A DNA stretch of 64,000 nucleotides, from positions 42,259 to 106,258 of the IMG/VR virus record IMGVR_UViG_2576861193_000004, one strand, 5' to 3'. Positions 14,571-47,265 of this stretch are shown piece by piece. Under the pieces are notes generated by a model. It searched no databases and had not been told where the DNA came from. It saw only the letters and a program-made list of their open reading frames with translations. Positions within the stretch are counted from its first letter, which is position 1, and each line of letters begins with the position of its first letter. The stretch is from a virus. Taxonomy: Duplodnaviria; Heunggongvirae; Uroviricota; Caudoviricetes. A program made the position numbers and the translations under genes.

Positions 14571-15821
14571 AGAACCACCAAGAATAACACGGTTTTTGAC
14601 TGGATACCTACGATGTACTGGATAGCCCAATGCGTCTGCACTATGCTCAATGCCACCTGTCTTATCCATATCTCGTGTTCCAGGCTTGTAGATGACTTTT
14701 TCCAATGAATCAATCAAATGCTTGCACTTCGGATCGATATACAGCCGGATATCTCCAGATGCGGTCATCAGCATTCGGTTAACAGCATTAACACGATCCG
14801 CAATTGGCGGGTGCTTTTTCGAATAATCGACACGTAAGAATCCCTTCTCTTTGAATATGTCGACGTCAGACTCCCCGCGAGCATGTTGGCGATAAGCACC
14901 TGCCGGATCTGGAAATACCGTTATCTGTGATTTCCAGCGCCAGAAGCGTCTCTCAAGCTCATCACAAACCTCTGCCGTGTTAGAGGAAAAGAGCACCAAT
15001 TCATCAATTGCCCATAGCTCACCATTTGGCTGAGGTTGCAAAATTACTGAAGACATCGGGTCAATGTTGAAGTCCTGCCCTACCCATATAGGCAACCGAG
15101 GGTTGAACTGAAGCGGTTTTACATGCACGTTACGATCGAACGGGTAGTAAACGCGCCCGGACATGTTCTCAAAGCTCGCCAGGTACTCCTGAGCGAACGA
15201 TTTCGGGTCCATATCGTTCTTAGCAGCTTCAATTTCCGCCGTAGGCACAAACGGAGAATCGGCAGTTACAAACTGCCAGCTCTTCCACTGTCCCTTTCTT
15301 TGCAGCTCTACGTTCTGGCCTATAGTCCACAGTTTGTGAAATTCCGAGAAGCCTTTTGGCGTACCAATGATCAGTGCACCGCCGCGTGTCGATGAAAGAG
15401 TAGGTCGTAACACCTTGTACCAGGTGTCAGCCTTCATATCCTGAAATTCATCAAGCACTACAAAATGCAACGCTACGCCGCGCAGAGTGTCAGGCTTATC
15501 AGCACCTTTGAGGGCGATCTCCGAACCGTTCTTCAACACGATTGTCATCGTGGTGTCGTTCTTTTTCCTAACCCACTTACGAGGCAGAACTTCCTGTAGA
15601 TCGTCCCACAAAATCTGGCGAGCCATCTGGTAAGTAGGAGCGACATACCAGACCCTTTGCTTTTTTTCCTTTGCCGCCGCACGAATAATAGTGGAGATCG
15701 ACAACCGGGATTTTCCCCAGCGTCGACCAGCACAAACAACTTTAAATCGATGCGGAGACTGGAAGACTTTCATCTGTCCAGAATGCAGTTGCACAAGACT
15801 GAGCGAGGACGGGATTGCCAT
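14565..15821 (-). CDS. terminase large subunit
   Basis: 418 aa; Walker A VVCAGRRWGKS, Walker B-like VVLDEFQD, C-terminal nuclease-like region; start overlaps stop of TerS-like gene. Confidence 0.85.
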   Translation of the reverse strand: MAIPSSLSLVQLHSGQMKVFQSPHRFKVVCAGRRWGKSRLSISTIIRAAAKEKKQRVWYVAPTYQMARQILWDDLQEVLPRKWVRKKNDTTMTIVLKNGSEIALKGADKPDTLRGVALHFVVLDEFQDMKADTWYKVLRPTLSSTRGGALIIGTPKGFSEFHKLWTIGQNVELQRKGQWKSWQFVTADSPFVPTAEIEAAKNDMDPKSFAQEYLASFENMSGRVYYPFDRNVHVKPLQFNPRLPIWVGQDFNIDPMSSVILQPQPNGELWAIDELVLFSSNTAEVCDELERRFWRWKSQITVFPDPAGAYRQHARGESDVDIFKEKGFLRVDYSKKHPPIADRVNAVNRMLMTASGDIRLYIDPKCKHLIDSLEKVIYKPGTRDMDKTGGIEHSADALGYPVHRRYPVKNRVILGGSR

Positions 15822-16453
15822 TATTCGTCCTCCCCTTCACTTCCATCATCTGTCGCATCAAATTCGCTTAGAGCTTCTTCTTCCAACGTCTCAAGCAATT
15901 CGTCATCGATGATTTCAGGCTCGTCGTCTTCCTGACGTAATTTCGCCACCTGGGAAGGCGTAAGCTCACCAAATACCAGGTTCGGAATTTCTTCCTCGTC
16001 ATTTTCCGCATGATCCATGCCCAATGCTTTGGACGAAACTTCAAAGCATTTTGCAAGGGTATTACTGGCTCTCTGTAAGCTCTTGAGAGAATCCTCAATC
16101 GCCCCTAAAGGCCTACCCTCACGTTTGGCCGTAGTGACTTCGACCATCACCATCTGCCCCAACGCATACGCCCAGCCGTCATAACGTGTACGACGTTCTT
16201 CTATCTTTTCCGCACGGGCTTTAGCGCGAAGCTCTGCGTCAGATTTAAGAGACTCACGAACCATCTTCCCAACAGAGTCCGCGCCTTTCTCTAATCCTCG
16301 CTTTTTGAAATGTCTGGAGAGTGTTTCACGACGAATGCCGTACTCTTCCTCCAGCTTTGAGAGTGTATATTCGCCTGACGTCCATTTGGCTTCAGCTTCG
16401 GCCCACTCCGCTGGTGTCAGGCGAGTTTTTACCTCGTCTTTTTCGACCGTCAT
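15821..16453 (-). CDS. terminase small subunit (putative)
   Basis: 210 aa, N-terminal HTH-like segment (TLSKLEEEYGIRRETLSRHFKKRG), acidic C-terminus, translationally coupled to TerL. Confidence 0.5.
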   Translation of the reverse strand: MTVEKDEVKTRLTPAEWAEAEAKWTSGEYTLSKLEEEYGIRRETLSRHFKKRGLEKGADSVGKMVRESLKSDAELRAKARAEKIEERRTRYDGWAYALGQMVMVEVTTAKREGRPLGAIEDSLKSLQRASNTLAKCFEVSSKALGMDHAENDEEEIPNLVFGELTPSQVAKLRQEDDEPEIIDDELLETLEEEALSEFDATDDGSEGEDE

Positions 16454-16492: not shown

Positions 16493-16508
16493 AAAACAAC
16501 TTGTTTAC
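16493..16508. promoter_or_regulatory. motif-1 palindrome (AAACAAnTTGTTT)
   Basis: aaaacaacttgtttac upstream of TerS-like gene. Confidence 0.45.
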
Positions 16509-16518
16509 TGCATCTGCT

Positions 16519-16534
16519 AACCAACTTGTTTTCT
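16519..16534. promoter_or_regulatory. motif-1 palindrome
   Basis: aaccaacttgttttct. Confidence 0.45.
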
Positions 16535-31597: not shown

Positions 31598-33631
31598 TTA
31601 CTTAACCTGGTGGCCTGGTTTAGCACCAGCATCCGGGCTTAACAGGAAGATATCTTTCCCGCCGGGGCCAGCAGCCATCACCATGCCTTCGGAGATACCG
31701 AAGCGCATTTTACGCGGAGCCAGGTTAGCCACCATAATGGTGTGACGACCAATCAGTGCCTGTGGGTCTGGATAAGCAGAACGGATGCCTGAGAAGACAT
31801 TACGCTTTTCACCACCGAGATCCAGTGTCAGACGCAGCAGTTTGTCAGAACCTTCGACAAACTCCGCGTTTTCAATCAGCGCCACACGCAGGTCAACTTT
31901 GGCGAAGTCGTCAAAGGTGATGGTTTCCTGAATCGGGTCGTCAGCCAGTGGGCCAGTTACCGGTGCAGCTGTGGCTTTCACTTCTTCTTTGGATGCTTCC
32001 ACCAGTGCTTCCACCTGTTTCATATCGATACGGTTATACAGTGCCTTGAACGGATTCACTTTATGGCCCAGCAGCGGTTGCTGGATACCATCCCAGGTCA
32101 GTTCTGTATTCAGGAATGCTTCTGCACGTTCAGTCAGTTTCGGCAGTACCGGTTTCAGGTACGTCATCAGCACGCGGAACAGGTTAATGCCCATAGAGCA
32201 AATCGCCTGCAGGTCGGCATCGCGGCCTTCCTGCTTCGCCACCACCCACGGAGCCTGTTCATCAACATAGCGGTTAGCCAGGTCAGCCAGTGACATGATT
32301 TCACGGATAGCTTTGCCAAATTCGCGGCTTTCCCACGCTTCACCAATCACTTCAGCGGCATCAGTGAAGGTTTTGTACAGTTGCGGGTCAGCCAGTTCGC
32401 TTGCCAGCACGCCGTCAAAACGTTTGTTGATAAAACCTGCATTACGGGAGGCCAGGTTAACCACTTTGTTCACGATATCGGCATTCACGCGCTGAACAAA
32501 ATCTTCCAGGTTGAGATCGATATCATCAATGCGCGAAGAGAGTTTCGCAGTGTAGTAGTAACGCAGGCTGTCGGCGTCAAAATGATTCAGCCAGGTGCTG
32601 GCTTTAATAAAGGTGCCGCGAGACTTGGACATCTTCGCGCCGTTCACCGTCACATAGCCGTGAACAAACAGGTTGGTCGGCTTGCGGAAGTTGCTGCCTT
32701 CCAGCATGGCAGGCCAGAACAGGCTGTGGAAGTAAACGATATCTTTACCGATGAAGTGGTACAGCTCGGCGGTGGAGTCTTTCTTCCAGTATTCGTCGAA
32801 GCTGGTAGTGTCGCCGCGTTTGTCGCACAGATTCTTGAAGGAACCCATGTAGCCAATCGGCGCGTCCAGCCAGACGTAGAAATATTTGCCCGGTGCGTTC
32901 GGAATTTCAAAACCGAAGTACGGCGCATCGCGGGAGATATCCCACTGTTGCAGGCCAGATTCAAACCACTCCTGCATTTTGTTTGCCACCTGCTCCTGCA
33001 ACGCACCGCTGCGGGTCCATGCCTGCAACATTTCGCTGAAAGAGGGCAGATCAAAGAAGAAGTGTTCAGAATCACGCATTACCGGCGTAGCGCCAGAAAC
33101 CACCGATTTCGGCTCGATCAATTCAGTCGGGCTATATGTTGCGCCGCAGACTTCACAGTTATCGCCGTATTGATCTGGCGCTTTACATTTAGGACAGGTG
33201 CCTTTTACAAAACGGTCCGGCAGGAACATGCCTTTTTCCGGGTCGTACAACTGAGAGATAGTGCGGTTTTTAATAAAACCGTTCTCTTTCAGGCGAGTAT
33301 AGATAAGCTCAGACAACTGACGGTTCTCTTCGCTGTGCGTCGAGTGATAGTTGTCATAGCTGATGTTAAAGCCTGCGAAATCAGTCTGGTGTTCCTGACT
33401 CATTTCGCCAATCATCTGCTCCGGTGTGATACCAAGCTGCTGTGCTTTCAGCATGATCGGCGTACCGTGGGCATCGTCGGCACAGATGAAATTAACCTCG
33501 TGGCCGCGCATTCGCTGGTAACGAACCCAGACATCAGCCTGGATGTGCTCCAGCATATGGCCGAGGTGGATTGAGCCGTTAGCGTACGGCAGCGCGCACG
33601 TCACCAGAATTTTCTTCGCGACTTGGGTCAT
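31598..33631 (-). CDS. metG: methionine--tRNA ligase
   Basis: Translation from [26 protein letters not shown] (HIGH motif) through KMSKS to C-terminal tRNA-binding domain ending [10 protein letters not shown]; 677 aa from ATG 33631; ORF track N-terminal extension rejected. Confidence 0.95.
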
Positions 33632-33788
33632 AGTAGGCATTACTTCTTTGTAGTGAAAAGGGGCTTGATAGTAACAAAATGGCCTTATGTCTGCCATGTG
33701 ATAACAGCATTTCTCATAAATGATTAAATGTCGTAGCTGGAGTACACTACAAGGCGACAATTGCGCAAATTAAAATAAAGGAGACGGG

Positions 33789-39720: not shown

Positions 39721-42700
39721 ATGACTCATCAAACACACACCATTGCTGAATCCAATAACTTTATCGTCCTTGATAAGTACATCAAAGCTGAGCAAACAAG
39801 CGACAGCTACCAGAGCGAATCGGACCTGGAACGTGAACTGATTCAGGACCTGCGGAATCAGGGTTATGAATTTATTTCCGTAAAATCACAGTCGGCAATG
39901 CTGTCCAATGTTCGGGAACAGCTTCAGAGCCTCAATGGTGTGATGTTTAATGACAGCGAGTGGCGGCGCTTCACGGAGCAGTATCTGGACAATCCCAGCG
40001 ATGGTATTCTGGATAAGACCCGTAAAATCCATATCGACTATATCTGCGACTTTATTTTTGACGACGGGCGTCTTGAGAACATCTATCTGATCGATAAAAA
40101 GAATCTCATGCGCAACAAAGTGCAGATTATCCAGCAGTTTGAACAGGCAGGTTCTCATGCTAACCGTTATGACGTCACGATCCTGGTTAATGGCTTGCCT
40201 CTGGTGCAAATCGAACTGAAAAAGCGCGGCGTGGCGATTCGTGAGGCTTTCAACCAGATACATCGTTACAGCAAAGAGAGTTTTAACAGCGAAAATTCCC
40301 TGTTTAAGTATCTGCAACTGTTTGTCATTTCTAACGGCACCGATACCCGTTATTTTGCCAACACCACAAAGCGCGATAAAAACAGTTTTGACTTCACCAT
40401 GAACTGGGCGAAATCAGACAACACGCTGATTAAAGACCTCAAAGACTTTACCGCTACCTTTTTCCAGAAACATACCCTGCTTAATGTTCTGGTGAACTAC
40501 AGCGTGTTTGACAGTAGTCAGACGCTACTGGTGATGCGACCGTACCAGATTGCAGCTACCGAACGGATCTTATGGAAAATCAACAGCTCCTATAAAGCGA
40601 AAAACTGGTCTAACCCCGAAAGCGGTGGCTTTATCTGGCACACCACTGGTTCCGGTAAAACACTGACCAGCTTTAAAGCCGCGCGTCTGGCAACTGAACT
40701 GGACTTTATTGATAAAGTCTTCTTCGTGGTCGACAGGAAAGACCTCGATTACCAGACCATGAAGGAATATCAGCGTTTTTCGCCAGACAGCGTCAACGGC
40801 TCGGAAAATACCGCAGGTCTTAAACGAAATCTGGATAAGGACGATAACAAAATTATCGTCACCACTATTCAGAAACTTAATAACCTGATGAAAGCAGAAA
40901 GCGACCTGCCTGTATACAATCAGCAAGTGGTGTTTATATTTGATGAATGCCACCGCAGCCAGTTTGGAGAAGCGCAGAAAAACCTGAAGAAGAAATTCAA
41001 ACGCTATTATCAGTTTGGTTTTACCGGCACCCCTATTTTCCCGGAAAATGCCTTAGGCTCAGAAACGACCGCCAGCGTATTTGGTCGTGAATTGCATTCG
41101 TATGTAATTACCGATGCGATTCGTGACGAAAAAGTGCTCAAATTCAAGGTGGACTACAACGATGTGCGGCCACAGTTTAAGTCTTTAGAGACAGAAACTG
41201 ACGAGAAAAAACTGAGTGCGGCTGAAAATCAGCAGGCGTTTCTTCATCCCATGCGTATTCAGGAAATCACGCAATATATCCTGAACAACTTCCGCCAGAA
41301 GACTCACCGTACTTACCCCGGCTCCAAAGGTTTTAATGCCATGCTGGCAGTAAGCAGCGTGGATGCCGCGAAAGCCTATTACGCGACGTTTAAACGGTTA
41401 CAAGAGGAAGCCGCTAATAAATCTGCTACCTATAAACCACTGCGTGTTGCGACAATCTTCTCCTTTGCCGCCAATGAAGAACAAAATGCCATTGGTGAAA
41501 TTTCCGATGAAACTTTTGATACCAGCGCAATGGACAGCAGTGCTAAAGAGTTTCTTGACGCTGCAATTCGTGAGTATAACAGCTATTTTAAAACTAACTT
41601 CAGCACCGACAGTAACGGTTTTCAGAACTACTATCGTGATTTAGCCCAACGGGTTAAAAATCAGGATATCGATCTGTTAATTGTCGTTGGGATGTTTTTA
41701 ACCGGCTTCGACGCTCCAACATTGAACACGCTATTCGTCGATAAAAACTTGCGTTTTCACGGCCTGATGCAGGCATTCTCCCGTACCAACCGCATTTATG
41801 ACGCTACTAAAACCTTCGGTAACATCGTCACTTTTCGGGATCTGGAACGCTCAACCATTGATGCCATAACGCTGTTTGGTGATAAAAATACTAAAAATGT
41901 GGTGTTAGAAAAGAGTTATGCAGAGTATATGGAAGGCTTTACTGATGCTGCTACAGGTGAAGCTAAACGCGGCTTTATGGCAGTAGTTTCAGAACTGGAA
42001 CAACGGTTCCCTGACCCTGCCAGTATTGAAAGTGAAAAAGAGAAGAAAGACTTCGTTAAACTGTTTGGCGAATACCTGCGTGCCGAGAACATCCTGCAAA
42101 ACTATGATGAATTTGCCACGCTGAAAGCCCTGCAACAAATCGATCTTAGCGATCCTGTTGCGGTAGAAAAATTCAAAGAAGAACATTATGTGGATGATGA
42201 AAAGTTCGCTGAATTGCAAACGATTCGTCTCCCTGCTGAACGCAAGATTCAGGATTATCGTTCTGCCTATAACGATATTCGTGACTGGCAGCGCCGCGAG
42301 AAAGAAGCTGATAAAAAAGAAAAATCAACCACTGACTGGGATGACGTGGTTTTTGAGGTCGATTTGCTGAAGTCTCAGGAAATAAACCTGGATTATATCC
42401 TTGGACTGATTTTCGAACACAACAGACAAAATAAAGGCAAGGGCGAAATGATCGAAGAGGTCAAACGCTTAATTCGTTCAAGCCTGGGGAACCGGGCGAA
42501 AGAGGGCCTGGTGGTCGATTTTATTCAGCAAACGAACCTGGATGATTTACCAGACAAAGCCAGCATCATTGACGCGTTCTTTACCTTTGCTCAACACGAA
42601 CAGCTACGTGAAGCAGAAGCGTTGATTAAAGAAGAAAATCTCAATGAAGAGGCGGCGAAACGCTATATTCGCACGTCTTTAAAACGCGAATACGCCACCG

Positions 42701-42837
42701 AAAATGGCACAGAATTAAACGAGACATTACCAAAACTTAGTCCGTTAAACCCGCAATATAAAACGAAAAAACAGACGGTTTTCCAGAAAATCGTCACGTT
42801 TATTGAAAAGTTCAAAGGAGTAGGTGGGCAGATATAG
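39721..42837 (+). CDS. hsdR: Type I restriction enzyme R subunit
   Basis: 1038 aa; helicase motifs [12 protein letters not shown] ([11 protein letters not shown]), endonuclease-type N-terminal region; 120-bp gap after hsdS with no intervening gene. Confidence 0.95.
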
Positions 42838-43482: not shown

Positions 43483-44097
43483 CTAATCATACTTGGAGGT
43501 ATTTATCACCAGAATTTTGTTTGTATAAATCTTCTTAATATCCCATGTGACATTACCGGAATACCATTGGCCGTTATACACTTGGTTTCCAGTTGCACCT
43601 GTCATAGTTACATAGACAGGTCTGTCGTAATCGGTTCGTCTATAGTTATATACCCCAACCATAGCAGGCATTACTGCGCACGGATACCCCATATCTATTG
43701 TAAATTGTGGGTCAGAAATAGTGATAAGTTTCGCATCAAGGGGCATCATCTCACCGTGATACACCATTGCGCCTGCGCTGTTATACATGGCAATGCCATA
43801 GCCAGAATGTGGTAACACCATATCAGAAAAAGCATAAACTGTTATTGTTCCGGGGCTACCATTTACCTGATGCAATCTGAGAGCATTGTATCCGTTACTA
43901 TTTTCATGAATAAACATCATGTTCGCCTTATTACTGCTTTTTATGAAGAAAAAGCATGATTTGTTTGATGGGATTGATGTTTTAAAAACAGAACCTTTAG
44001 ATGCAGACATTGTCCCTTTATTAATCAGATTTTGCGGAGTAAATTCTGGACTCATCCACAAACCTCCATCTGATTGAGTAATTGACATCCCGAACAT
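43483..44097 (-). CDS. hypothetical protein (Gly/Ser/Thr/Asn/Tyr-rich, beta-rich)
   Basis: Start set at MFGMSITQSDGG (ATG 44095-44097) right after stop of upstream gene; low-GC region. Confidence 0.3.
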   Translation of the reverse strand: MFGMSITQSDGGLWMSPEFTPQNLINKGTMSASKGSVFKTSIPSNKSCFFFIKSSNKANMMFIHENSNGYNALRLHQVNGSPGTITVYAFSDMVLPHSGYGIAMYNSAGAMVYHGEMMPLDAKLITISDPQFTIDMGYPCAVMPAMVGVYNYRRTDYDRPVYVTMTGATGNQVYNGQWYSGNVTWDIKKIYTNKILVINTSKYD

Positions 44098-44099
44098 AA

Positions 44100-44381
44100 T
44101 TATCCCCAGTATGTGTATATGTAAGAACCAAGCCCCGTATATAAATTTGACCAACTAACCGTATTTCCATTAATAGTAACTTTCGGAACAGGTAAATTGA
44201 TGTAGTTGTCGTTGTTAAGAGGCATCAATGACCACACGGCATGAAGTGATTTACCCGGTGGCGGATTAGAGTACGTCTTAGAGCCTGATGACGCCGTAAA
44301 TCGATCAAGAAAAAAAATAGGTGTAAGGAAGCCAGTAACGTTAATTCCTTTATTGTTGTAAATCCCTGTACCGTATGCCAT
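44100..44381 (-). CDS. hypothetical protein
   Basis: 93 aa; coupled to downstream gene; low-GC. Confidence 0.3.
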   Translation of the reverse strand: MAYGTGIYNNKGINVTGFLTPIFFLDRFTASSGSKTYSNPPPGKSLHAVWSLMPLNNDNYINLPVPKVTINGNTVSWSNLYTGLGSYIYTYWG

Positions 44382-44435: not shown

Positions 44436-45005
44436 TCAATTAGAGCTTTGAAAGACTTTGTGTGGTTGTGTTGCGAGGTTATGTCGATGGCTTAACTCAC
44501 GCATCATGTCTTCAAGGCGACTCTTTGTGTCGTCGAGTTGGTCGGCCATTGCTCCCAAAAGCTGACGAACGGCCATCGGATCATCGCTGTTTAGTGATGG
44601 CATTTTATAACCCGCCTGAGAAGACATAAGATTGAACGCAGACATCAACATCGTTAGAGAGGATTTAAGCCCAGCAATTTCACGATCTTTGCTGGCAATA
44701 ATCGCCTCACTCTTGTTAGTGTCATCAGTACGTTGAGTCTCGCTCACCATATCCAAAGTCGCCTGCAACTTATCAGCGAGCTCTTTTTCAGCAAGATAAT
44801 GAACGCCGAAATGATGTGCTAAAGCTACAACCTGAGTTGGTTCTTCAAAGGTGGAATTAAAATTAAGTACTGTAAACAGTCTCTCAAATATGGAAACGTC
44901 TTCTGTTCCCCGAACAATACCTAACATTTTGACAAGTTCATTAGCATCCATTTCTTCGAATAGGGCGTTTTGTTCATCAGCTATTGCTTTGCATTTCTCG
45001 CACAT
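44436..45005 (-). CDS. hypothetical protein
   Basis: 189 aa; 5' UTR AAGGAAAACAC-ATG with motif-1 palindrome upstream, same architecture as the TerB-like gene. Confidence 0.3.
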   Translation of the reverse strand: MCEKCKAIADEQNALFEEMDANELVKMLGIVRGTEDVSIFERLFTVLNFNSTFEEPTQVVALAHHFGVHYLAEKELADKLQATLDMVSETQRTDDTNKSEAIIASKDREIAGLKSSLTMLMSAFNLMSSQAGYKMPSLNSDDPMAVRQLLGAMADQLDDTKSRLEDMMRELSHRHNLATQPHKVFQSSN

Positions 45006-45022
45006 GTGTTTTCCTTAATTCT

Positions 45023-45040
45023 TAAACAAGTTGTTTTCTT
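45023..45040. promoter_or_regulatory. motif-1 palindrome
   Basis: taaacaagttgttttctt upstream of 44436-45005. Confidence 0.5.
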
Positions 45041-45302
45041 ATTGGGTTTATTGTGATGTGGCATATAAGGGGAGCAAGCTAAACGTAAAGGTGCAAACTC
45101 TCTATTTTGGTCAACGAAACACAAGGGCCATTTGGCCCTTGCCATTAACACGTTGCTTTACGGACTAGCGGATAGGCGAAGTAGATCGCCAAACCAATGA
45201 GGACGCCATCAGAAATGACAGACATCATCTTTCCCGTAAAATCCACCAACACCGCCATCACCAGAAGAGCAATGACGGTCACAAGCCGGAATCTCTCAAG
45301 CA

Positions 45303-45728
45303 TTAGAGATAAGCATCCAGTGACAACTGAAGCGCCTGGGCGATCTTTTTCAGTGCCTGCTCTTCTTGTTCACCAATGCCGTCCTGGTCGGCAATATCAA
45401 GGCACAGACACAGAACATCGACCGCCTCTGGAGTGCCCGCAATATCAGCCAGCTCACGCATAGCCTGCGCATTCGCAGAACGAGGGGACGCTTCGTAACG
45501 AGCACGGATATTGGCGCTCATTTGGGCAATTTCACCAGCAAACGGAGAAAACGCAGGCAGAGCTGCAATTGTCTTCTCAAGAATGGCAATTTCTTTTGCG
45601 TCACATGTGCCGTCGGCATAGGAGATCATGTACGCGCCCCACACGGTGGCCTCAACCGCATCACGGTTCTCCATTTTTTTGACTTCGATAACAGCTTTAC
45701 GAGTTTTCTTTTTGAAGAAACCTAACAT
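45303..45728 (-). CDS. TerB-domain protein
   Basis: 141 aa; two TerB-like acidic helical repeats (ISYADGTCDAKEIAILEKTIAAL and LCLCLDIADQDGIGEQEEQALKKIAQAL). Confidence 0.45.
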   Translation of the reverse strand: MLGFFKKKTRKAVIEVKKMENRDAVEATVWGAYMISYADGTCDAKEIAILEKTIAALPAFSPFAGEIAQMSANIRARYEASPRSANAQAMRELADIAGTPEAVDVLCLCLDIADQDGIGEQEEQALKKIAQALQLSLDAYL

Positions 45729-45750
45729 GTGTTTTCCTTTTGTTATTTGT

Positions 45751-45767
45751 CAAAACAAGTTGTTTTA
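45751..45767. promoter_or_regulatory. motif-1 palindrome
   Basis: caaaacaagttgtttta upstream of TerB-like gene. Confidence 0.5.
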
Positions 45768-45821
45768 TAGTTTCATAAATTGCTTACGCAAAGATGGTCA
45801 ATGCATATGCACTAACAACCG

Positions 45822-46010
45822 TCAGAAATAACCAAGTACCGAACCGACTGGAAAAACAAAAATCCCAACTACACGAGCCAAGGTCATGCCAGCCTGAAAC
45901 TTGAGATCACCTGAGCAAACGAGTTTTATAATGTTGGATACCCAACCGGCGGCCATGAGAGCCAGAATTGCCAGCCAAATTTTCCCAAAGTGATTTGAAA
46001 GCCAGTTCAT
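45822..46010 (-). CDS. small membrane protein
   Basis: 62 aa, two hydrophobic segments (IWLAILALMAAGWV, VVGIFVFPVGSVLGYF). Confidence 0.3.
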   Translation of the reverse strand: MNWLSNHFGKIWLAILALMAAGWVSNIIKLVCSGDLKFQAGMTLARVVGIFVFPVGSVLGYF

Positions 46011-46019
46011 ACAACCACC

Positions 46020-46514
46020 TTAGTCACAACATGATCCTGAGTAACTGGATGAACTTGAGGTATCGCATCCACCGTCATCCCATCCAGAGTGACAGGACGC
46101 TCTACTGTAGTGGTGGTAATTGTCGTCGACGGAGGTGTGGTGATGGATGAATCCGGCATCAAAAGGCTCTGACCGGCTGGTACGGTAATCGCTGCCAGAG
46201 TTGCCAAAATCACTCCGTAGGCCATTGGCTTCAGTCGATTTCGTTGAAAATTTTCCATGAGAACTGTCCTTGTGTGTCCGGGTTTCACGCAACACACGAG
46301 AAGCGACGCTATTACGCACCTTCTCCATGCCTACTGTCGTGCCCAGATTAGCTATGGCGGTAGCTTGCGCATTAATGCGCTTCTCCAGTTCAAACACTCG
46401 TTCTTCCAGTTCCGTAAGGCGTGCGGAAACACGACCACTAAACAGCTCGGTCAGCACCAGGCGAATTGAACGGGGACGTTTATTGAAAGAAGTGAAAGAC
46501 GTTTGACGGGCCAT
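46020..46514 (-). CDS. hypothetical protein; C-terminal half overlaps an alternative-frame ORF (46007-46258) so the true end is uncertain
   Basis: N-terminal 80 aa look protein-like (coiled-coil LTELEERVFELEKRINAQATAIANL); C-terminal half is low-complexity; the other frame encodes a hydrophobic N-terminus then a Pro/Thr-rich segment. Confidence 0.25.
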   Translation of the reverse strand: MARQTSFTSFNKRPRSIRLVLTELFSGRVSARLTELEERVFELEKRINAQATAIANLGTTVGMEKVRNSVASRVLRETRTHKDSSHGKFSTKSTEANGLRSDFGNSGSDYRTSRSEPFDAGFIHHHTSVDDNYHHYSRASCHSGWDDGGCDTSSSSSYSGSCCD

Positions 46515-46656
46515 GTGGATTCCATTCAGTGTCAGAAAGAGTTGCGGCTGGCCAAGCCAGCCGCCTTTTGGCGTTCCATCCTGGAACCGTACCTAACCGG
46601 TACTTCGTCATCCTGACGATTTATAAGATACCTGATTTATTATAGTGGGTAAATAC

Positions 46657-47265
46657 TTACTTATCTTTTTGTGACAAAAACCCAATGTCATGCTTGTGAG
46701 GCATATCAGCTGCGGAATAGGCGGCGATCTTCGCCAGACGGTCACACATTTCGTTCTCGCGATGACCTGCATGGCCTTTAACCCACTTCCAGCGGACATT
46801 ATGACGACTGGCGGCCGCGTCGAGACGTTTCCAGAGATCCACGTTTTTGACTGGCTTCTTCTCAGACGTGATCCATCCGTTACGCTTCCAGCCTTTCATC
46901 CAGAGCGTCATGCCGTTTTTAAGATACTGGCTGTCGGAATGCAGGATCACGTTGCAGGGGTACTTCAGACGCTCCAGCGCAATCAGGGCGCCCATCATCT
47001 CCATCCGATTGTTGGTCGTGCTGTGAAAGCCCTCAGAAAGCTCGCGCTCTTCGCCTCGATACTGGAGAACGATGCCGTAACCGCCCGGCCCGCCCGGATT
47101 TTTGAGGCAAGAGCCATCACTGAATACTTTTACGGTTTTGAGCTGGGGATTGAACTCGACTACGGGGGTTTTGAAGTTGGTACGGGATTGCTGGTGGGTT
47201 TGGTATCTGGCTTTGGACTTCGTGCGGCAGCCAGTATGTTGCCGGGCTGGGGTCTTGGTCGTCAT
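46657..47265 (-). CDS. rnhA: ribonuclease HI
   Basis: Core [58 protein letters not shown] parallels E. coli RnhA; start set at MTTKT. Confidence 0.8.

What the first reader, a model, noticed from the sequence alone, without database searches (positions are those of the whole stretch)
44436..46514. Co-regulated pair (189-aa unknown and TerB-domain protein) followed by small membrane and overlapping ORFs
Genes 44436-45005 and 45303-45728 share an almost identical 5' architecture (motif-1 palindrome, then AAGGAAAACAC-ATG). TerB domains are recurrent in stress and phage-defence-associated clusters. Downstream lie a 62-aa two-helix membrane protein and a region (46007-46514) where two frames overlap for about 280 nt, one with a hydrophobic N-terminus plus Pro/Thr-rich tail. 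That overlap is reminiscent of embedded lysis-type genes, but diagnostic lipobox and TMD features are missing.
Basis: partly seen in the sequence, partly recalled or inferred. Interest (0 to 1): 0.45.

Follow-up and report, generated by a model that had tools for sequence, protein, structure and literature searches.

The report
Phage-plasmid accessory genes sharing one operator
This is an accessory gene block, silent in a related lysogen, of an SSU5-like phage-plasmid: a P1-type tciA/tciB (TerB) cassette and an orphan gene sit behind the same palindromic operator, next to a probably real, usually unannotated overlapping gene. It is interesting in detail but not a new kind of system.

Summary

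- **Source.** The window is an SSU5-like E. coli phage-plasmid: 99.8% identical to a pig E. coli plasmid and 89% to phage Cyrano.
- **TerB gene.** The 141-aa protein passes Pfam TerB and is 79% identical to phage P1 TciA.
- **Shared 5' module.** tciA and the 189-aa orphan both start with AAACAACTTGTTT followed by AAGGAAAACAC-ATG.
- **The palindrome.** It occurs about 17 times on the element, always upstream of genes. In most modules it sits 11-13 nt after a -10-like hexamer. It is conserved in E. coli, Salmonella, Klebsiella and Cronobacter relatives, so it is most likely the operator of an unidentified regulator.
- **Cassette slot.** The slot between the two palindromes is swappable: tciAB here, an antirepressor in SSU5.
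- **Overlapping frames.** The embedded +1 frame (B, 83 aa, signal-peptide-like N-terminus) is the best-constrained frame in the overlap. It is intact in 61 of 61 loci and ATGA/GTGA-coupled to the 62-aa membrane gene. The annotated 164-aa frame (A) is constrained only in its N-terminal half and is broken in six loci.
- **What it is not.** Spanin membership fails, and no defence-system model matches. Protein functions remain unknown.

The parts
46625..46653 (-). Promoter-like TTTACC-N17-TATCTT immediately after the rnhA stop codon, overlapped by a GGTAAG..TTTACC inverted repeat. Inferred promoter of the A/B/C unit.
   Evidence: Conserved in all lineages in the intergenic alignment. In the Cyrano RNA-seq, CYRAN_83 (A) is higher than rnhA in condition B1. 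The consensus scan did not report it, so it is an inference.
46515..46623 (-). Structured leader of about 100 nt, predicted as three hairpins enclosed by a long-range stem. Two CAGGAUG motifs are conserved: one lies in the loop of the GUUCCA hairpin, the other in the 5' arm of the long-range stem (in a loop only in an alternative local hairpin). The last hairpin is terminator-like.
   Evidence: RNAalifold on 12 diverse sequences gives 30 pairs, 5 of them with compensatory changes. MFE is -45.4 kcal/mol, z=-3.16. There is no Rfam family at gathering score, only a sub-threshold CsrB match of 12.6 bits, E=0.11. The element is single-copy on the phage-plasmid.
46020..46514 (-). Gene A, 164 aa: N-terminal basic, coiled-coil-like half and a Ser/Gly/Asp/His-rich tail ending in CCD. 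The tail is overlapped by B.
   Evidence: Annotated by PGAP and in Cyrano; matches phrog_10411. pN/pS is 0.53 in codons 2-85 but 1.04 in the overlap. No hydrophobic segment. Disrupted in 6 related loci.
46007..46258 (-). Gene B, 83 aa, in the +1 frame inside and just beyond A: signal-peptide-like N-terminus (MENFQRNRLKP-MAYGVILATLAAITV-PAG) followed by a Thr/Pro-rich region and a conserved LDGM..D.IP motif.
   Evidence: Intact in 61 of 61 assessable loci. A Shine-Dalgarno sequence (AAGGAC) is conserved, and the stop overlaps the C start as ATGA or GTGA in 61 of 61. It is the best-constrained frame in the overlap, pN/pS 0.64, CI 0.47-0.87. Third-position variability of frame A drops from 1.18 to 0.53 changes per column, p=1e-5. 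Gene callers call it in some assemblies. Matches phrog_15659.
45822..46010 (-). Gene C, 62 aa, small membrane protein with two hydrophobic helices, translationally coupled to B.
   Evidence: Hydrophobic segments at residues 8-28 and 40-62; phrog_6006; pN/pS 0.42.
45753..45765 (.). Operator-like palindrome AAACAACTTGTTT upstream of tciA, overlapping a -10-like TATAAA.
   Evidence: Present at the same place in 50 of 51 related loci, whatever cassette follows.
45729..45739 (-). Shine-Dalgarno plus spacer AAGGAAAACAC of tciA, identical to that of the 189-aa gene.
45303..45728 (-). tciA, a TerB-domain protein of 141 aa.
   Evidence: Pfam TerB 31.6 bits against cutoff 24.4; phrog_632, E=1.5e-63; 79.4% identity to P1 TciA over the full length.
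45145..45303 (-). tciB, 52-aa DUF3927 membrane protein with two hydrophobic segments. Its start overlaps the tciA stop (TAATG).
   Evidence: Pfam DUF3927 47.4 bits against cutoff 25; phrog_1470; 39% identity to P1 TciB, E=8e-11; hydropathy.
45121..45142 (-). Terminator-like hairpin that closes the tciAB unit.
   Evidence: Nine-pair stem found by the scan.
45050..45077 (-). Inferred weak promoter TTGCTC-N16-CACAAT of the 189-aa gene.
   Evidence: Aligns with the -10 (GATAAT or TATTAT) of sibling modules, 11-13 nt upstream of the palindrome. Conserved as CACAAT or CAGAAT in SSU5 and pJN2-26. Not reported by the consensus scan.
45024..45036 (.). Operator-like palindrome AAACAACTTGTTT, placed at about +6 to +18 of the inferred promoter of the 189-aa gene.
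45006..45016 (-). Shine-Dalgarno plus spacer AAGGAAAACAC of the 189-aa gene.
44436..45005 (-). Orphan gene of 189 aa: acidic, predicted all-helical, no known domain.
   Evidence: phrog_5508 covers the full length. The family is restricted to SSU5-like elements of Enterobacteriaceae and has only 19 representative clusters among 1.84 billion proteins. AlphaFold2 pLDDT is 59. No fold match and no PDB sequence match.

Best explanation
The region is an accessory block of an SSU5-like phage-plasmid. Its homologues sit at the detection floor in overnight LB culture of a Cyrano lysogen. It is organised as three leftward transcription units.

**Unit 1.** An inferred promoter directly after rnhA, plus a structured leader of about 100 nt, drives three genes:
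- A, a cytoplasmic protein with a coiled-coil-like N-terminal half.
- B, encoded in the +1 frame over A's poorly constrained tail. It is a small exported or membrane-anchored Thr/Pro-rich protein.
- C, a two-helix membrane protein whose start is coupled to B's stop (ATGA).

**Unit 2.** This is the tciA-tciB cassette also found in phage P1: a TerB-domain protein plus a DUF3927 membrane peptide. It ends at a hairpin terminator.

**Unit 3.** This is a family-restricted 189-aa orphan gene.

**Regulation.** Units 2 and 3 each begin with the same module: a weak -10 element, then the 13-bp palindrome AAACAAnTTGTTT around the transcription start, then the same ribosome-binding site. The palindrome is most likely the operator of a dimeric regulator encoded by the element. 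That regulator would hold about 17 dispersed promoters shut together. These include promoters for a DnaB-like helicase, a CobT-like protein, a ParA/MipZ-like ATPase, the head of the packaging operon and, in SSU5, an antirepressor. This resembles the way P1's C1 repressor controls many scattered operators.

**Cassette slot.** The slot between the two palindromes accepts alternative cassettes, tciAB or ant.

**Shown versus inferred.**
- Shown: the gene identities, the motif enrichment and conservation, the cassette variation, and the constraint pattern in the overlap.
- Inferred: that the palindrome is a repressor operator, that the proposed promoters are used, that B is exported, and that the proteins act on the cell envelope, for example in superinfection exclusion or colicin and stress protection.
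For: **Identity of the element.**

**TerB/TciA/TciB.**

**Palindrome**
- Enrichment: 24 strand-matches against 3.2 expected.
- Position: 11-13 nt after a -10-like hexamer in most modules, but 11-63 nt from the start codon.
- Five to six more sites lie upstream of genes on the rest of the plasmid.
- Conserved in SSU5 and in Klebsiella pJN2-26.
- Both boundary palindromes are present in 50 of 51 loci, whatever cassette lies between them.
- P1's own tciA upstream region lacks the palindrome. The module therefore belongs to the SSU5-like backbone, not to the cassette.

**Expression.** CYRAN_83-87 are at the detection floor in overnight LB culture of the lysogen and rise together in one condition (PMC9928086 S1 table).

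**Gene B**
- Three-frame pN/pS profile.
- Loss of third-position variability in frame A.
- 61 of 61 loci intact, with conserved Shine-Dalgarno sequence and ATGA junction.
- Conserved hydrophobic N-terminus across genera.
- A is broken in six loci while B stays intact.
Against: - No binding protein has been identified. The intergenic region between the putative main repressor and its divergent neighbour in Cyrano lacks the palindrome.
- The consensus promoter scan did not report the proposed promoters.
- One palindrome-bearing gene, the ParA/MipZ-like ATPase (if it is the gene annotated 'septum site-determining protein' in Cyrano, CYRAN_99), is expressed in the lysogen.
- B's open frame alone is weak evidence. 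Given A's amino-acid sequence it stays open by chance with probability 0.12-0.79.
- My overlapping-gene dN/dS estimator is biased. It returned 0.63 for a non-coding control frame.
- Several A lesions lie in homopolymer runs and could be sequencing errors.
- There is no translation or protein evidence for A, B or C.
- No function could be derived for A, B, C or the 189-aa protein.
Confidence: 0.6

Rival explanations
1. Only the annotated 164-aa frame (A) is translated. The embedded frame B is an accidental open frame that persists because A's Ser/Gly/Asp/His-rich tail rarely creates stop codons in the +1 frame.
For: Given A's protein sequence, B stays open by chance with probability 0.12-0.79. 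PGAP and the Cyrano and SSU5 annotators call A only. A is open with a conserved ...SGWD...CCD end in all 30 distinct sequences. Given B's protein, A would stay open with probability of only 0.04-0.12.
Against: In the overlap, frame A has pN/pS 1.04 (CI 0.76-1.48) against 0.53 in its N-terminal half. B has the lowest value, 0.64. Frame A's third positions become the least variable class. B's hydrophobic core changes conservatively across genera while A's residues change radically. The ATGA junction and the Shine-Dalgarno sequence are conserved in 61 of 61 loci. A is broken in six loci.
Confidence: 0.15
2. A and B form a spanin-type or other lysis pair, with an Rz/Rz1-like embedded architecture, and C acts as a holin-like membrane protein.
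For: A +1-frame gene starting inside a coiled-coil-like gene and running past its end is the architecture of the P2 lysB/lysC class (own knowledge). B has an N-terminal hydrophobic signal and a Pro/Thr-rich body. C has two transmembrane helices.
Against: A has no transmembrane segment, and B has no Cys and therefore no lipobox. The neighbours are RNase H, tciA and DNA-metabolism genes rather than an endolysin. A is dispensable in several lineages. No PHROG lysis annotation applies.
Confidence: 0.04
3. The palindrome is not a repressor operator. It could instead be an RNA-level element in the 5' UTR, such as a translational-repressor site like those of T4 RegA. It could be a host-factor site. 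Or it could be a recombination boundary that merely marks module junctions.
For: It lies inside the predicted 5' UTR, close to a shared Shine-Dalgarno sequence (AGGAAAnCAC-ATG) at several genes. It flanks a swappable cassette. No cognate regulator was found.
Against: Perfect two-fold symmetry with a free central base fits a protein dimer on double-stranded DNA. As RNA it would leave a 1-nt loop. In most modules the distance to the -10-like element is fixed at 11-13 nt, while the distance to the ATG varies from 11 to 63 nt. Paired sites 25 and 51 bp apart bracket promoters. Multi-site clusters in public viral contigs are mostly on contigs of about 50-112 kb, as expected for this type of element, while most other matches are single (weak evidence).
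Confidence: 0.2
4. tciA-tciB is an anti-phage or abortive-infection defence module carried as cargo, as the TerB association suggested to the first reader.
For: TerB domains occur in stress and defence neighbourhoods (own knowledge; Anantharaman et al. 2012, not checked here). The cassette sits in a variable slot next to a type I restriction-modification system.
Against: There are no PADLOC matches. The homologous genes are at the expression floor in overnight LB culture of the lysogen, where a defence gene would be expected to be on. In P1 the same genes lie in the C1-repressed ban operon. The alternative occupant of the slot is an antirepressor, which is a lytic-switch gene.
Confidence: 0.1

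Closest known systems
Phage P1 tciA-tciB-tciC (in the C1-controlled ban operon)
   Same: TciA is 79% identical over the full length. TciB is a homologous DUF3927 peptide (39% identity). The two genes are adjacent and translationally coupled. They are not expressed in overnight LB culture of the lysogen.
   Different: There is no tciC homologue. The upstream region is entirely different: P1 has no palindrome and a different ribosome-binding site. Here the pair forms its own short unit with its own operator and terminator. The function has not been tested experimentally in either phage as far as I could find.
Dispersed operator networks of plasmid-prophages and plasmids (P1 C1 operators; IncP KorB OB sites TTTAGCSGCTAAA)
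   Same: About 17 copies of one short operator are scattered over a roughly 114-kb extrachromosomal element, sitting at promoters of replication, accessory and packaging genes. The 13-bp 6-1-6 geometry equals that of the KorB site (own knowledge). The element encodes two ParB_N proteins.
   Different: The sequence is unrelated to the C1 operator, and none is present here. The regulator is unknown, and binding and repression were not tested.
Overlapped or embedded spanin genes (lambda Rz/Rz1; P2 lysB/lysC)
   Same: A small gene with an export signal and a Pro/Thr-rich body is encoded in the +1 frame of a coiled-coil-like gene and extends past its end.
   Different: The outer gene has no TMD and the inner gene has no lipobox Cys. 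There is no lysis context, and the outer gene's overlapped part is essentially unconstrained.
T4 Imm and Sp (early superinfection-exclusion proteins)
   Same: Analogy only: a small periplasmic protein with a signal peptide, plus a small two-helix inner-membrane protein, carried by a phage (own knowledge).
   Different: No sequence similarity was found. The function here is untested.
CsrA-binding RNAs (CsrB repeats CAGGAUG in hairpin loops)
   Same: The leader of gene A carries two conserved CAGGAUG motifs, at least one of them in a hairpin loop, plus a GGA at the Shine-Dalgarno sequence.
   Different: The Rfam CsrB match is far below threshold (12.6 bits against 71). This is a cis leader, not a small RNA, and binding is untested.

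Membership tests
TerB family (Pfam PF05099) | Profile score at or above the curated gathering threshold | tested here: met
   31.6 bits against 24.4, E=2.2e-7, residues 33-136.
P1-type tciABC cassette | Full-length similarity to P1 TciA | tested here: met
   79.4% identity over 141 of 141 residues.
P1-type tciABC cassette | Adjacent TciB (DUF3927) membrane peptide | tested here: met
   Pfam DUF3927 47.4 bits against 25. 39% identity to P1 TciB, E=8e-11. The start overlaps the tciA stop.
P1-type tciABC cassette | TciC peptide after tciB | tested here: not met
   No tblastn match better than E=0.5 anywhere in the window. A terminator follows tciB directly.
Tellurite-resistance ter operon (terZABCDEF) | Other ter genes (TerC, TerD, TerZ and so on) in the neighbourhood | tested here: not met
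   Neighbours are DUF3927, orphan proteins and RNase H.
Two-component spanins (Rz/Rz1 type) | i-spanin with an N-terminal transmembrane domain | tested here: not met
   Gene A's maximum 15-residue hydropathy is 0.91, with no hydrophobic segment.
Two-component spanins (Rz/Rz1 type) | o-spanin with a lipoprotein signal and lipobox Cys | tested here: not met
   B has no Cys in or just after the hydrophobic region in 33 of 34 distinct sequences; the one exception (Klebsiella) has a Cys within the core and another well downstream. The conserved motif is AVPAGQS.
Two-component spanins (Rz/Rz1 type) | +1-frame embedded or overlapped gene architecture | tested here: met
   B starts inside A in the +1 frame and ends 13 nt past A's stop.
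Two-component spanins (Rz/Rz1 type) | Location in a lysis cassette with holin and endolysin | tested here: not met
   Flanked by rnhA and tciA. No lysis annotation within 8 kb on either side.
Known anti-phage defence systems (PADLOC-DB v2) | Match to any defence-system protein model | tested here: not met
   No matches for TerB, TciB, A, B or C. There is only a weak Csn2 match (E=9e-4) for the 189-aa protein, and it is not supported by PDB sequence search (E=0.14).
Functional overlapping (dual-coding) gene pair | Purifying selection detectable in the alternative frame | tested here: met
   pN/pS for B is 0.64 (CI 0.47-0.87) while frame A is 1.04 in the same columns. Frame A's third-position variability halves, p=1e-5. 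Caveat: the estimator shows bias in a control.
Functional overlapping (dual-coding) gene pair | Translation of both frames | not testable with these tools
   Needs ribosome profiling or proteomics. None was found for this element.
Repressor operator at a promoter | Dyad symmetry, statistical enrichment, fixed position relative to the core promoter, conservation in relatives | tested here: met
   The fixed position holds for most but not all modules.
Repressor operator at a promoter | Cognate DNA-binding protein and repression | not testable with these tools
   Candidates only: a 128-aa HTH_19 protein next to the integrase and two ParB_N proteins. The intergenic region beside the HTH gene lacks the motif.
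CsrB/CsrA-binding RNA (Rfam RF00018) | Covariance-model score at or above gathering | tested here: not met
   12.6 bits against 71.

The most novel reading that the evidence does not exclude
Two novel readings are not excluded by the evidence.

1. A/B/C may be a previously unrecognised envelope-directed module of SSU5-like phage-plasmids. In this reading a real secreted protein (B) was overprinted on the disordered tail of a cytoplasmic protein. B is coupled to a two-helix membrane partner, and the unit is gated by a new structured leader that senses CsrA.
2. The AAACAAnTTGTTT sites may form the genome-wide operator network of the element's lytic-switch regulator, possibly a KorB-like ParB protein. 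That network would also define hot-swappable cassette slots holding tciAB or ant.
Probability: 0.2. Interest if true: 0.6.

Novelty: new member of a known kind. Interest (0 to 1): 0.35.

Why it matters
SSU5-like phage-plasmids are common in E. coli, Salmonella and Klebsiella, and their regulation is essentially uncharted.

- **The operator.** A single conserved 13-bp operator marking about 17 promoters gives a direct handle on the switch between plasmid carriage and lytic growth. It also gives a way to identify the regulator.
- **The cassette slot.** The operator-flanked slot shows how accessory genes such as tciAB or an antirepressor are plugged into that circuit.
- **Gene B.** The evidence for B means that standard annotation misses a conserved, probably exported protein in most of these elements. 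The frame that is annotated (A) is only partly under selection.

None of this changes the general picture of how temperate phages are organised.

Tried and rejected
**Searches for function that found nothing**
- Function of the 189-aa protein:
  - Pfam, PADLOC and PDB sequence searches gave only sub-threshold noise.
  - The AlphaFold2 model was poor, pLDDT 59.
  - Foldseek against the PDB gave nothing below E=6.
  - An exhaustive profile search found only 19 family-internal clusters.
- Gene A against the PDB: nothing.
- Distant homologues of B outside the family: none.
- Distant homologues of A: only the same family, in three further representative genomes.
- Literature on TciA/TciB function: nothing relevant.

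**RNA and motif searches that were negative**
- Rfam over the whole window and a tRNA scan: nothing.
- Covariance model of the leader: no second copy on the element.
- P1 C1 operator: absent from the window.
- P1's tciA upstream region: no palindrome.
- The intergenic region beside the putative main repressor in Cyrano: no palindrome.

**Methods found weak or flawed**
- "B is always open" turned out to be weak evidence once A's composition is taken into account.
- My OLGenie-style estimator failed a control. I therefore rely on the three-frame profile instead.

**Ideas rejected**
- Programmed frameshift fusing A to B. There is no slippery heptamer for a shift into B's frame, and no in-frame stop. 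The A-B fusions in databases (P0074, P0081, P0099) are best explained by indels at short homopolymers.


Full report
**Where the window comes from**

The 3.4 kb around the finding is 99.8% identical to a 114.8-kb plasmid of a pig E. coli isolate (NZ_JBWDPP010000001). It matches 233 of 5,426 complete E. coli genomes, almost always on plasmids. It is 89% identical to phage-plasmid Cyrano of E. coli LF82 and 84% identical, over part of its length, to Salmonella phage SSU5. Annotation of the near-identical record shows tail, head and terminase genes, ParB-like genes, a type I restriction-modification system, RNase H, a Dam-like methylase, thymidylate synthase and more. The window is therefore part of an SSU5-like phage-plasmid. 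Every gene in the finding is on the minus strand.

**Checking the observation**

The two genes share the 5' architecture as described:
- The 189-aa gene (44436-45005) is preceded by AAACAACTTGTTT-aagaatt-AAGGAAAACAC-ATG.
- The TerB gene (45303-45728) is preceded by AAACAACTTGTTT-tgacaaataacaa-AAGGAAAACAC-ATG.

The 14-mer AAGGAAAACACATG occurs exactly only at these two places. The palindrome AAACAAnTTGTTT with up to 2 mismatches gives 24 strand-matches, about 12 sites, in the window. Only 3.2 are expected, and no shuffle out of 100 reaches 24.

The remaining features also check out:
- The TerB call passes Pfam's curated threshold, 31.6 against 24.4 bits.
- The 62-aa ORF has two hydrophobic segments.
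- The two overlapping ORFs exist as stated.

It is a DUF3927 protein (47.4 bits against 25) whose ATG overlaps the TerB stop codon.

**The TerB gene is P1 tciA**

The 141-aa protein is 79.4% identical over its whole length to TciA of phage P1. The 52-aa protein is 39% identical to P1 TciB. There is no TciC homologue in the window.

In P1 these genes lie inside the ban operon, which the C1 repressor controls. Their annotated function, [quoted passage not shown], is by homology only. A literature search found no functional study. Homologues occur in many temperate phages of enterobacteria and pseudomonads. No PADLOC defence model matches the TerB protein, TciB, A, B or C.

P1's own tciA upstream region has neither the palindrome nor the shared ribosome-binding site. 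The 5' module therefore belongs to the SSU5-like backbone, not to the cassette.

**The palindrome behaves like a promoter-linked operator**

I oriented every site toward its downstream gene and found a recurring module: a -10-like hexamer (GATAAT, TATTAT or CACAAT), 11-13 nt resembling aCCaNcAAGA, then the palindrome, then 11-63 nt to the start codon.

- In most modules the distance to the -10 element is fixed, while the distance to the ATG is not.
- The symmetry is perfect, with a free central base. As RNA the motif would leave a 1-nt loop. Both points fit a protein dimer binding double-stranded DNA around the transcription start.
- Two pairs of sites lie 25 and 51 bp apart. The pair 51 bp apart brackets a promoter-like region.
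- The tciA site follows a different arrangement, overlapping a -10-like TATAAA rather than lying 11-13 nt after the hexamer.

On the rest of the plasmid, further sites sit upstream of a CobT-like gene, a DnaB-like helicase (with a similar AAAGGAAAGCACATG), a ParA/MipZ-like ATPase and two other genes. In the window, one pair of sites sits upstream of the small terminase gene and is followed by a terminator-like hairpin. In total there are about 17 sites per 114 kb.

The two sites of the finding are conserved in SSU5 and in Klebsiella phage pJN2-26, with the same Shine-Dalgarno sequence and spacer. In 50 of 51 related loci both palindromes are present.

I could not identify the binding protein:
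- The intergenic region between Cyrano's putative repressor (an HTH_19 protein beside the integrase) and its divergent neighbour lacks the motif. It carries GGTAAG..CTTACC repeats instead.
- Other candidates are two ParB_N proteins in the window.
- The consensus promoter scan did not report the proposed weak promoters, so they remain inferences.

**Expression data from a relative**

In the LF82/Cyrano RNA-seq table, the homologues of A, C, tciA, tciB and the 189-aa gene (CYRAN_83-87) sit at the detection floor in overnight LB culture, with log2(5+fpkm) between 2.3 and 3.3. The putative repressor is about tenfold above background. All five genes rise together, to about 4.5-6.0, in condition B1 and fall again in B6. 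The RNase H gene upstream rises less (PMC9928086). This fits co-regulated genes that are shut off in the resting lysogen, but it is indirect evidence.

**A swappable slot**

The sequence between gene C and the 189-aa gene differs among relatives:
- tciA-tciB in the E. coli, Klebsiella and Cronobacter types.
- One of two antirepressor-like genes (271 or 280 aa) in the Salmonella and Kluyvera types, including SSU5.
- Something else in one contig.

In all but that last contig the slot is flanked by the two palindromes. An antirepressor held behind this operator again suggests a regulator that keeps lytic functions off.

**The overlapping frames**

Frame A (164 aa) is open with the same length and a conserved ...SGWD...CCD end in all 30 distinct sequences first collected. 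Frame B is also open in all of them. It has a conserved start context, a conserved MENFQR(N/K)RLKPMAY...AVPAGQSLLMP N-terminus, a Thr/Pro-rich middle and an LDGM..D.IP motif.

Openness of B alone is weak evidence. Given A's amino-acid sequence, B would stay open with probability 0.12-0.79. Given B's sequence, A would stay open with probability of only 0.04-0.12.

The substitution pattern is more informative. Counts are distinct alleles minus one, summed over alignment columns:

| Region | A position 1 (= B position 3) | A position 2 (= B position 1) | A position 3 (= B position 2) |
|---|---|---|---|
| A alone (85 codons) | 77 | 46 | 100 |
| Overlap (77 codons) | 64 | 52 | 41 |

- The pattern in the overlap is the one expected for frame B.
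- The two regions differ with p=5e-4.
- Variability at A's third position falls from 1.18 to 0.53 changes per column, p=1e-5.

Single-frame pN/pS values:

| Region | Frame A | Frame +1 (B) | Frame +2 |
|---|---|---|---|
| A alone | 0.53 | 0.84 | 1.74 |
| Overlap | 1.04 (CI 0.76-1.48) | 0.64 (CI 0.47-0.87) | 0.95 |

- Coding in frame A only is rejected for the overlap, and B is the best-constrained frame there.
- A's value of 1.04 is below the 1.74 seen for a purely non-coding frame in that position. This suggests some residual constraint on A, at least to stay open.

An OLGenie-style estimate gave B 0.51-0.66 and A 1.0-1.15. The same estimator returned 0.63 for a non-coding control frame, so I do not lean on it.

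Further support for B:
- It is intact in 61 of 61 assessable loci.
- A Shine-Dalgarno-like AAGGAC (GGAGAG in Klebsiella, AGGGAA in Cronobacter) precedes its ATG.
- Its stop overlaps the start of C as ATGA (59 loci) or GTGA (2 loci).

A, in contrast, is damaged upstream of B in six loci. These are an ATG-to-ACG change, a 1-nt deletion, a replaced 5' end, and three different 1-nt insertions, including complete plasmids of K. quasipneumoniae and Shigella sonnei. Some of these may be homopolymer sequencing errors. Gene callers in several assemblies call B, with or without A.

I conclude that B is very probably a real gene. A is real in its N-terminal half and has a largely unconstrained tail.

**What A, B and C might do**

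- A has no hydrophobic segment.
- B has one, at residues 11-30, preceded by a positively charged stretch and followed by a conserved V/I-P-A/S motif. That motif fits the -3/-1 rule for signal peptidase I, which is my inference. B has no lipobox.
- C has two hydrophobic helices.

Spanin membership therefore fails on both defining features, and the genomic context is not a lysis cassette. Homologues of A, B and C exist only in SSU5-like elements of Enterobacteriaceae.

The most I can say is that unit 1 makes a cytoplasmic protein, a small exported or anchored protein and a small inner-membrane protein. Together with TciB, another two-helix peptide, the region is rich in envelope-directed small proteins. 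A role in superinfection exclusion or envelope protection during lytic growth is a guess by analogy with T4 Imm and Sp and with the phenotypes ascribed to ter genes.

**The 189-aa gene**

It belongs to an orphan family (phrog_5508) confined to these elements.
- An exhaustive profile search of 1.84 billion representative proteins found only 19 clusters, all within the family.
- AlphaFold2 predicts helices at low confidence, pLDDT 59.
- Fold search and PDB sequence search gave nothing.

**A structured leader found in passing**

Between the rnhA stop and the A start lie a conserved promoter-like TTTACC-N17-TATCTT and a leader of about 100 nt.
- The consensus fold has three hairpins enclosed by a long-range stem. 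It has 30 pairs, 5 of them with compensatory changes.
- Four of those five pairs are in the second hairpin, which reads GUACC/GGUAC, GUGUC/GACAC or GCG.C/G.CGC in different lineages.
- The fold is more stable than shuffled sequences, z=-3.2.
- Two CAGGAUG motifs are conserved. One lies in the loop of the GUUCCA hairpin. The other lies in the 5' arm of the long-range stem, or in a loop if a local hairpin forms instead. A GGA also sits at the Shine-Dalgarno sequence. These resemble CsrA sites.
- Rfam gives only a far sub-threshold CsrB match.
- The element is single-copy on the phage-plasmid.

**Verdict**

The co-regulation idea is the best-supported part. The TerB gene is a known P1-type cassette of untested function. 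The lysis and defence ideas are not supported. The overlap hides a probably real and usually unannotated gene. This is a new member of known kinds (a dispersed operator regulon and an overprinted phage gene), and of moderate interest.

Noticed in passing
window 46515-46656 (minus strand): The rnhA-A intergenic region holds a conserved promoter-like element and a structured leader of about 100 nt with compensatory base changes. It carries two conserved CAGGAUG motifs (CsrA-site-like), at least one of them in a hairpin loop. No Rfam family matches, and it is single-copy on the element.
   Followed up: partly
window 45037-45752; loci L003, L006-L061: The slot between gene C and the 189-aa gene carries tciA-tciB in some lineages and one of two antirepressor-like genes (271 or 280 aa) in others. 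In 50 of 51 loci it is bounded by the same two palindromes.
   Followed up: yes
window 16494-16531: Two palindrome copies 25 bp apart, followed by a terminator-like hairpin (AGAGCGC-ATGGA-CGCGCTCT, then a T-rich tract), lie just upstream of the small terminase gene (15821-16453). The same operator therefore also sits at the head of the packaging and structural operon.
   Followed up: partly
L064 (K. quasipneumoniae CP170139), L065 (Shigella sonnei CP022461), L066, L060, L061, L045: Gene A is broken upstream of B by six different lesions while B stays intact. Other database entries (P0074, P0081, P0099) are A-B fusion proteins caused by indels inside or just before the overlap.
   Followed up: partly
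L055 4575-4826 (Cyrano 42574-42826); window 46648-46665: Inverted repeats of the GGTAAG..CTTACC type occur between Cyrano's putative repressor gene and its divergent neighbour. A related GGTAAG..TTTACC repeat overlaps the -35-like element upstream of gene A. This may be a second operator type, but the spacing differs.
   Followed up: no
window about 31598-33760 and the adjacent gene on the + strand: The phage-plasmid carries a full-length methionine-tRNA ligase (metG) and an apbC-like iron-sulfur carrier gene, next to P1-like humD and hot (DNA polymerase III theta) homologues.
   Followed up: no
L001 15734-16210 (near-identical plasmid; should fall in the window near 51.7 kb, not checked): The dihydrofolate reductase in the nucleotide-metabolism cluster is annotated by PGAP as the trimethoprim-resistant DfrA51.
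   Followed up: no
window 36.9-42.8 kb compared with L002 and L003: A type I restriction-modification system (hsdM, hsdS, hsdR) lies where Cyrano and SSU5 carry a DUF4942 methylase and other genes. This is another variable cargo region next to the finding.
   Followed up: no
L063 14111-15139: A gene annotated only as 'regulator' in the near-identical plasmid is a T4 gp32-like single-stranded-DNA-binding protein (Pfam gp32, E=2e-66).
   Followed up: partly
window 43483-44381 (minus strand): Just after the 189-aa gene lie a 93-aa protein (phrog_557, 'outer membrane protein') and a protein of about 204 aa (phrog_425; PGAP calls it a C39-peptidase-domain protein). A hairpin (ATGGCCG...CGGCCAT) separates them from the 189-aa gene. 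Whether they belong to the same transcript is unknown.
   Followed up: no
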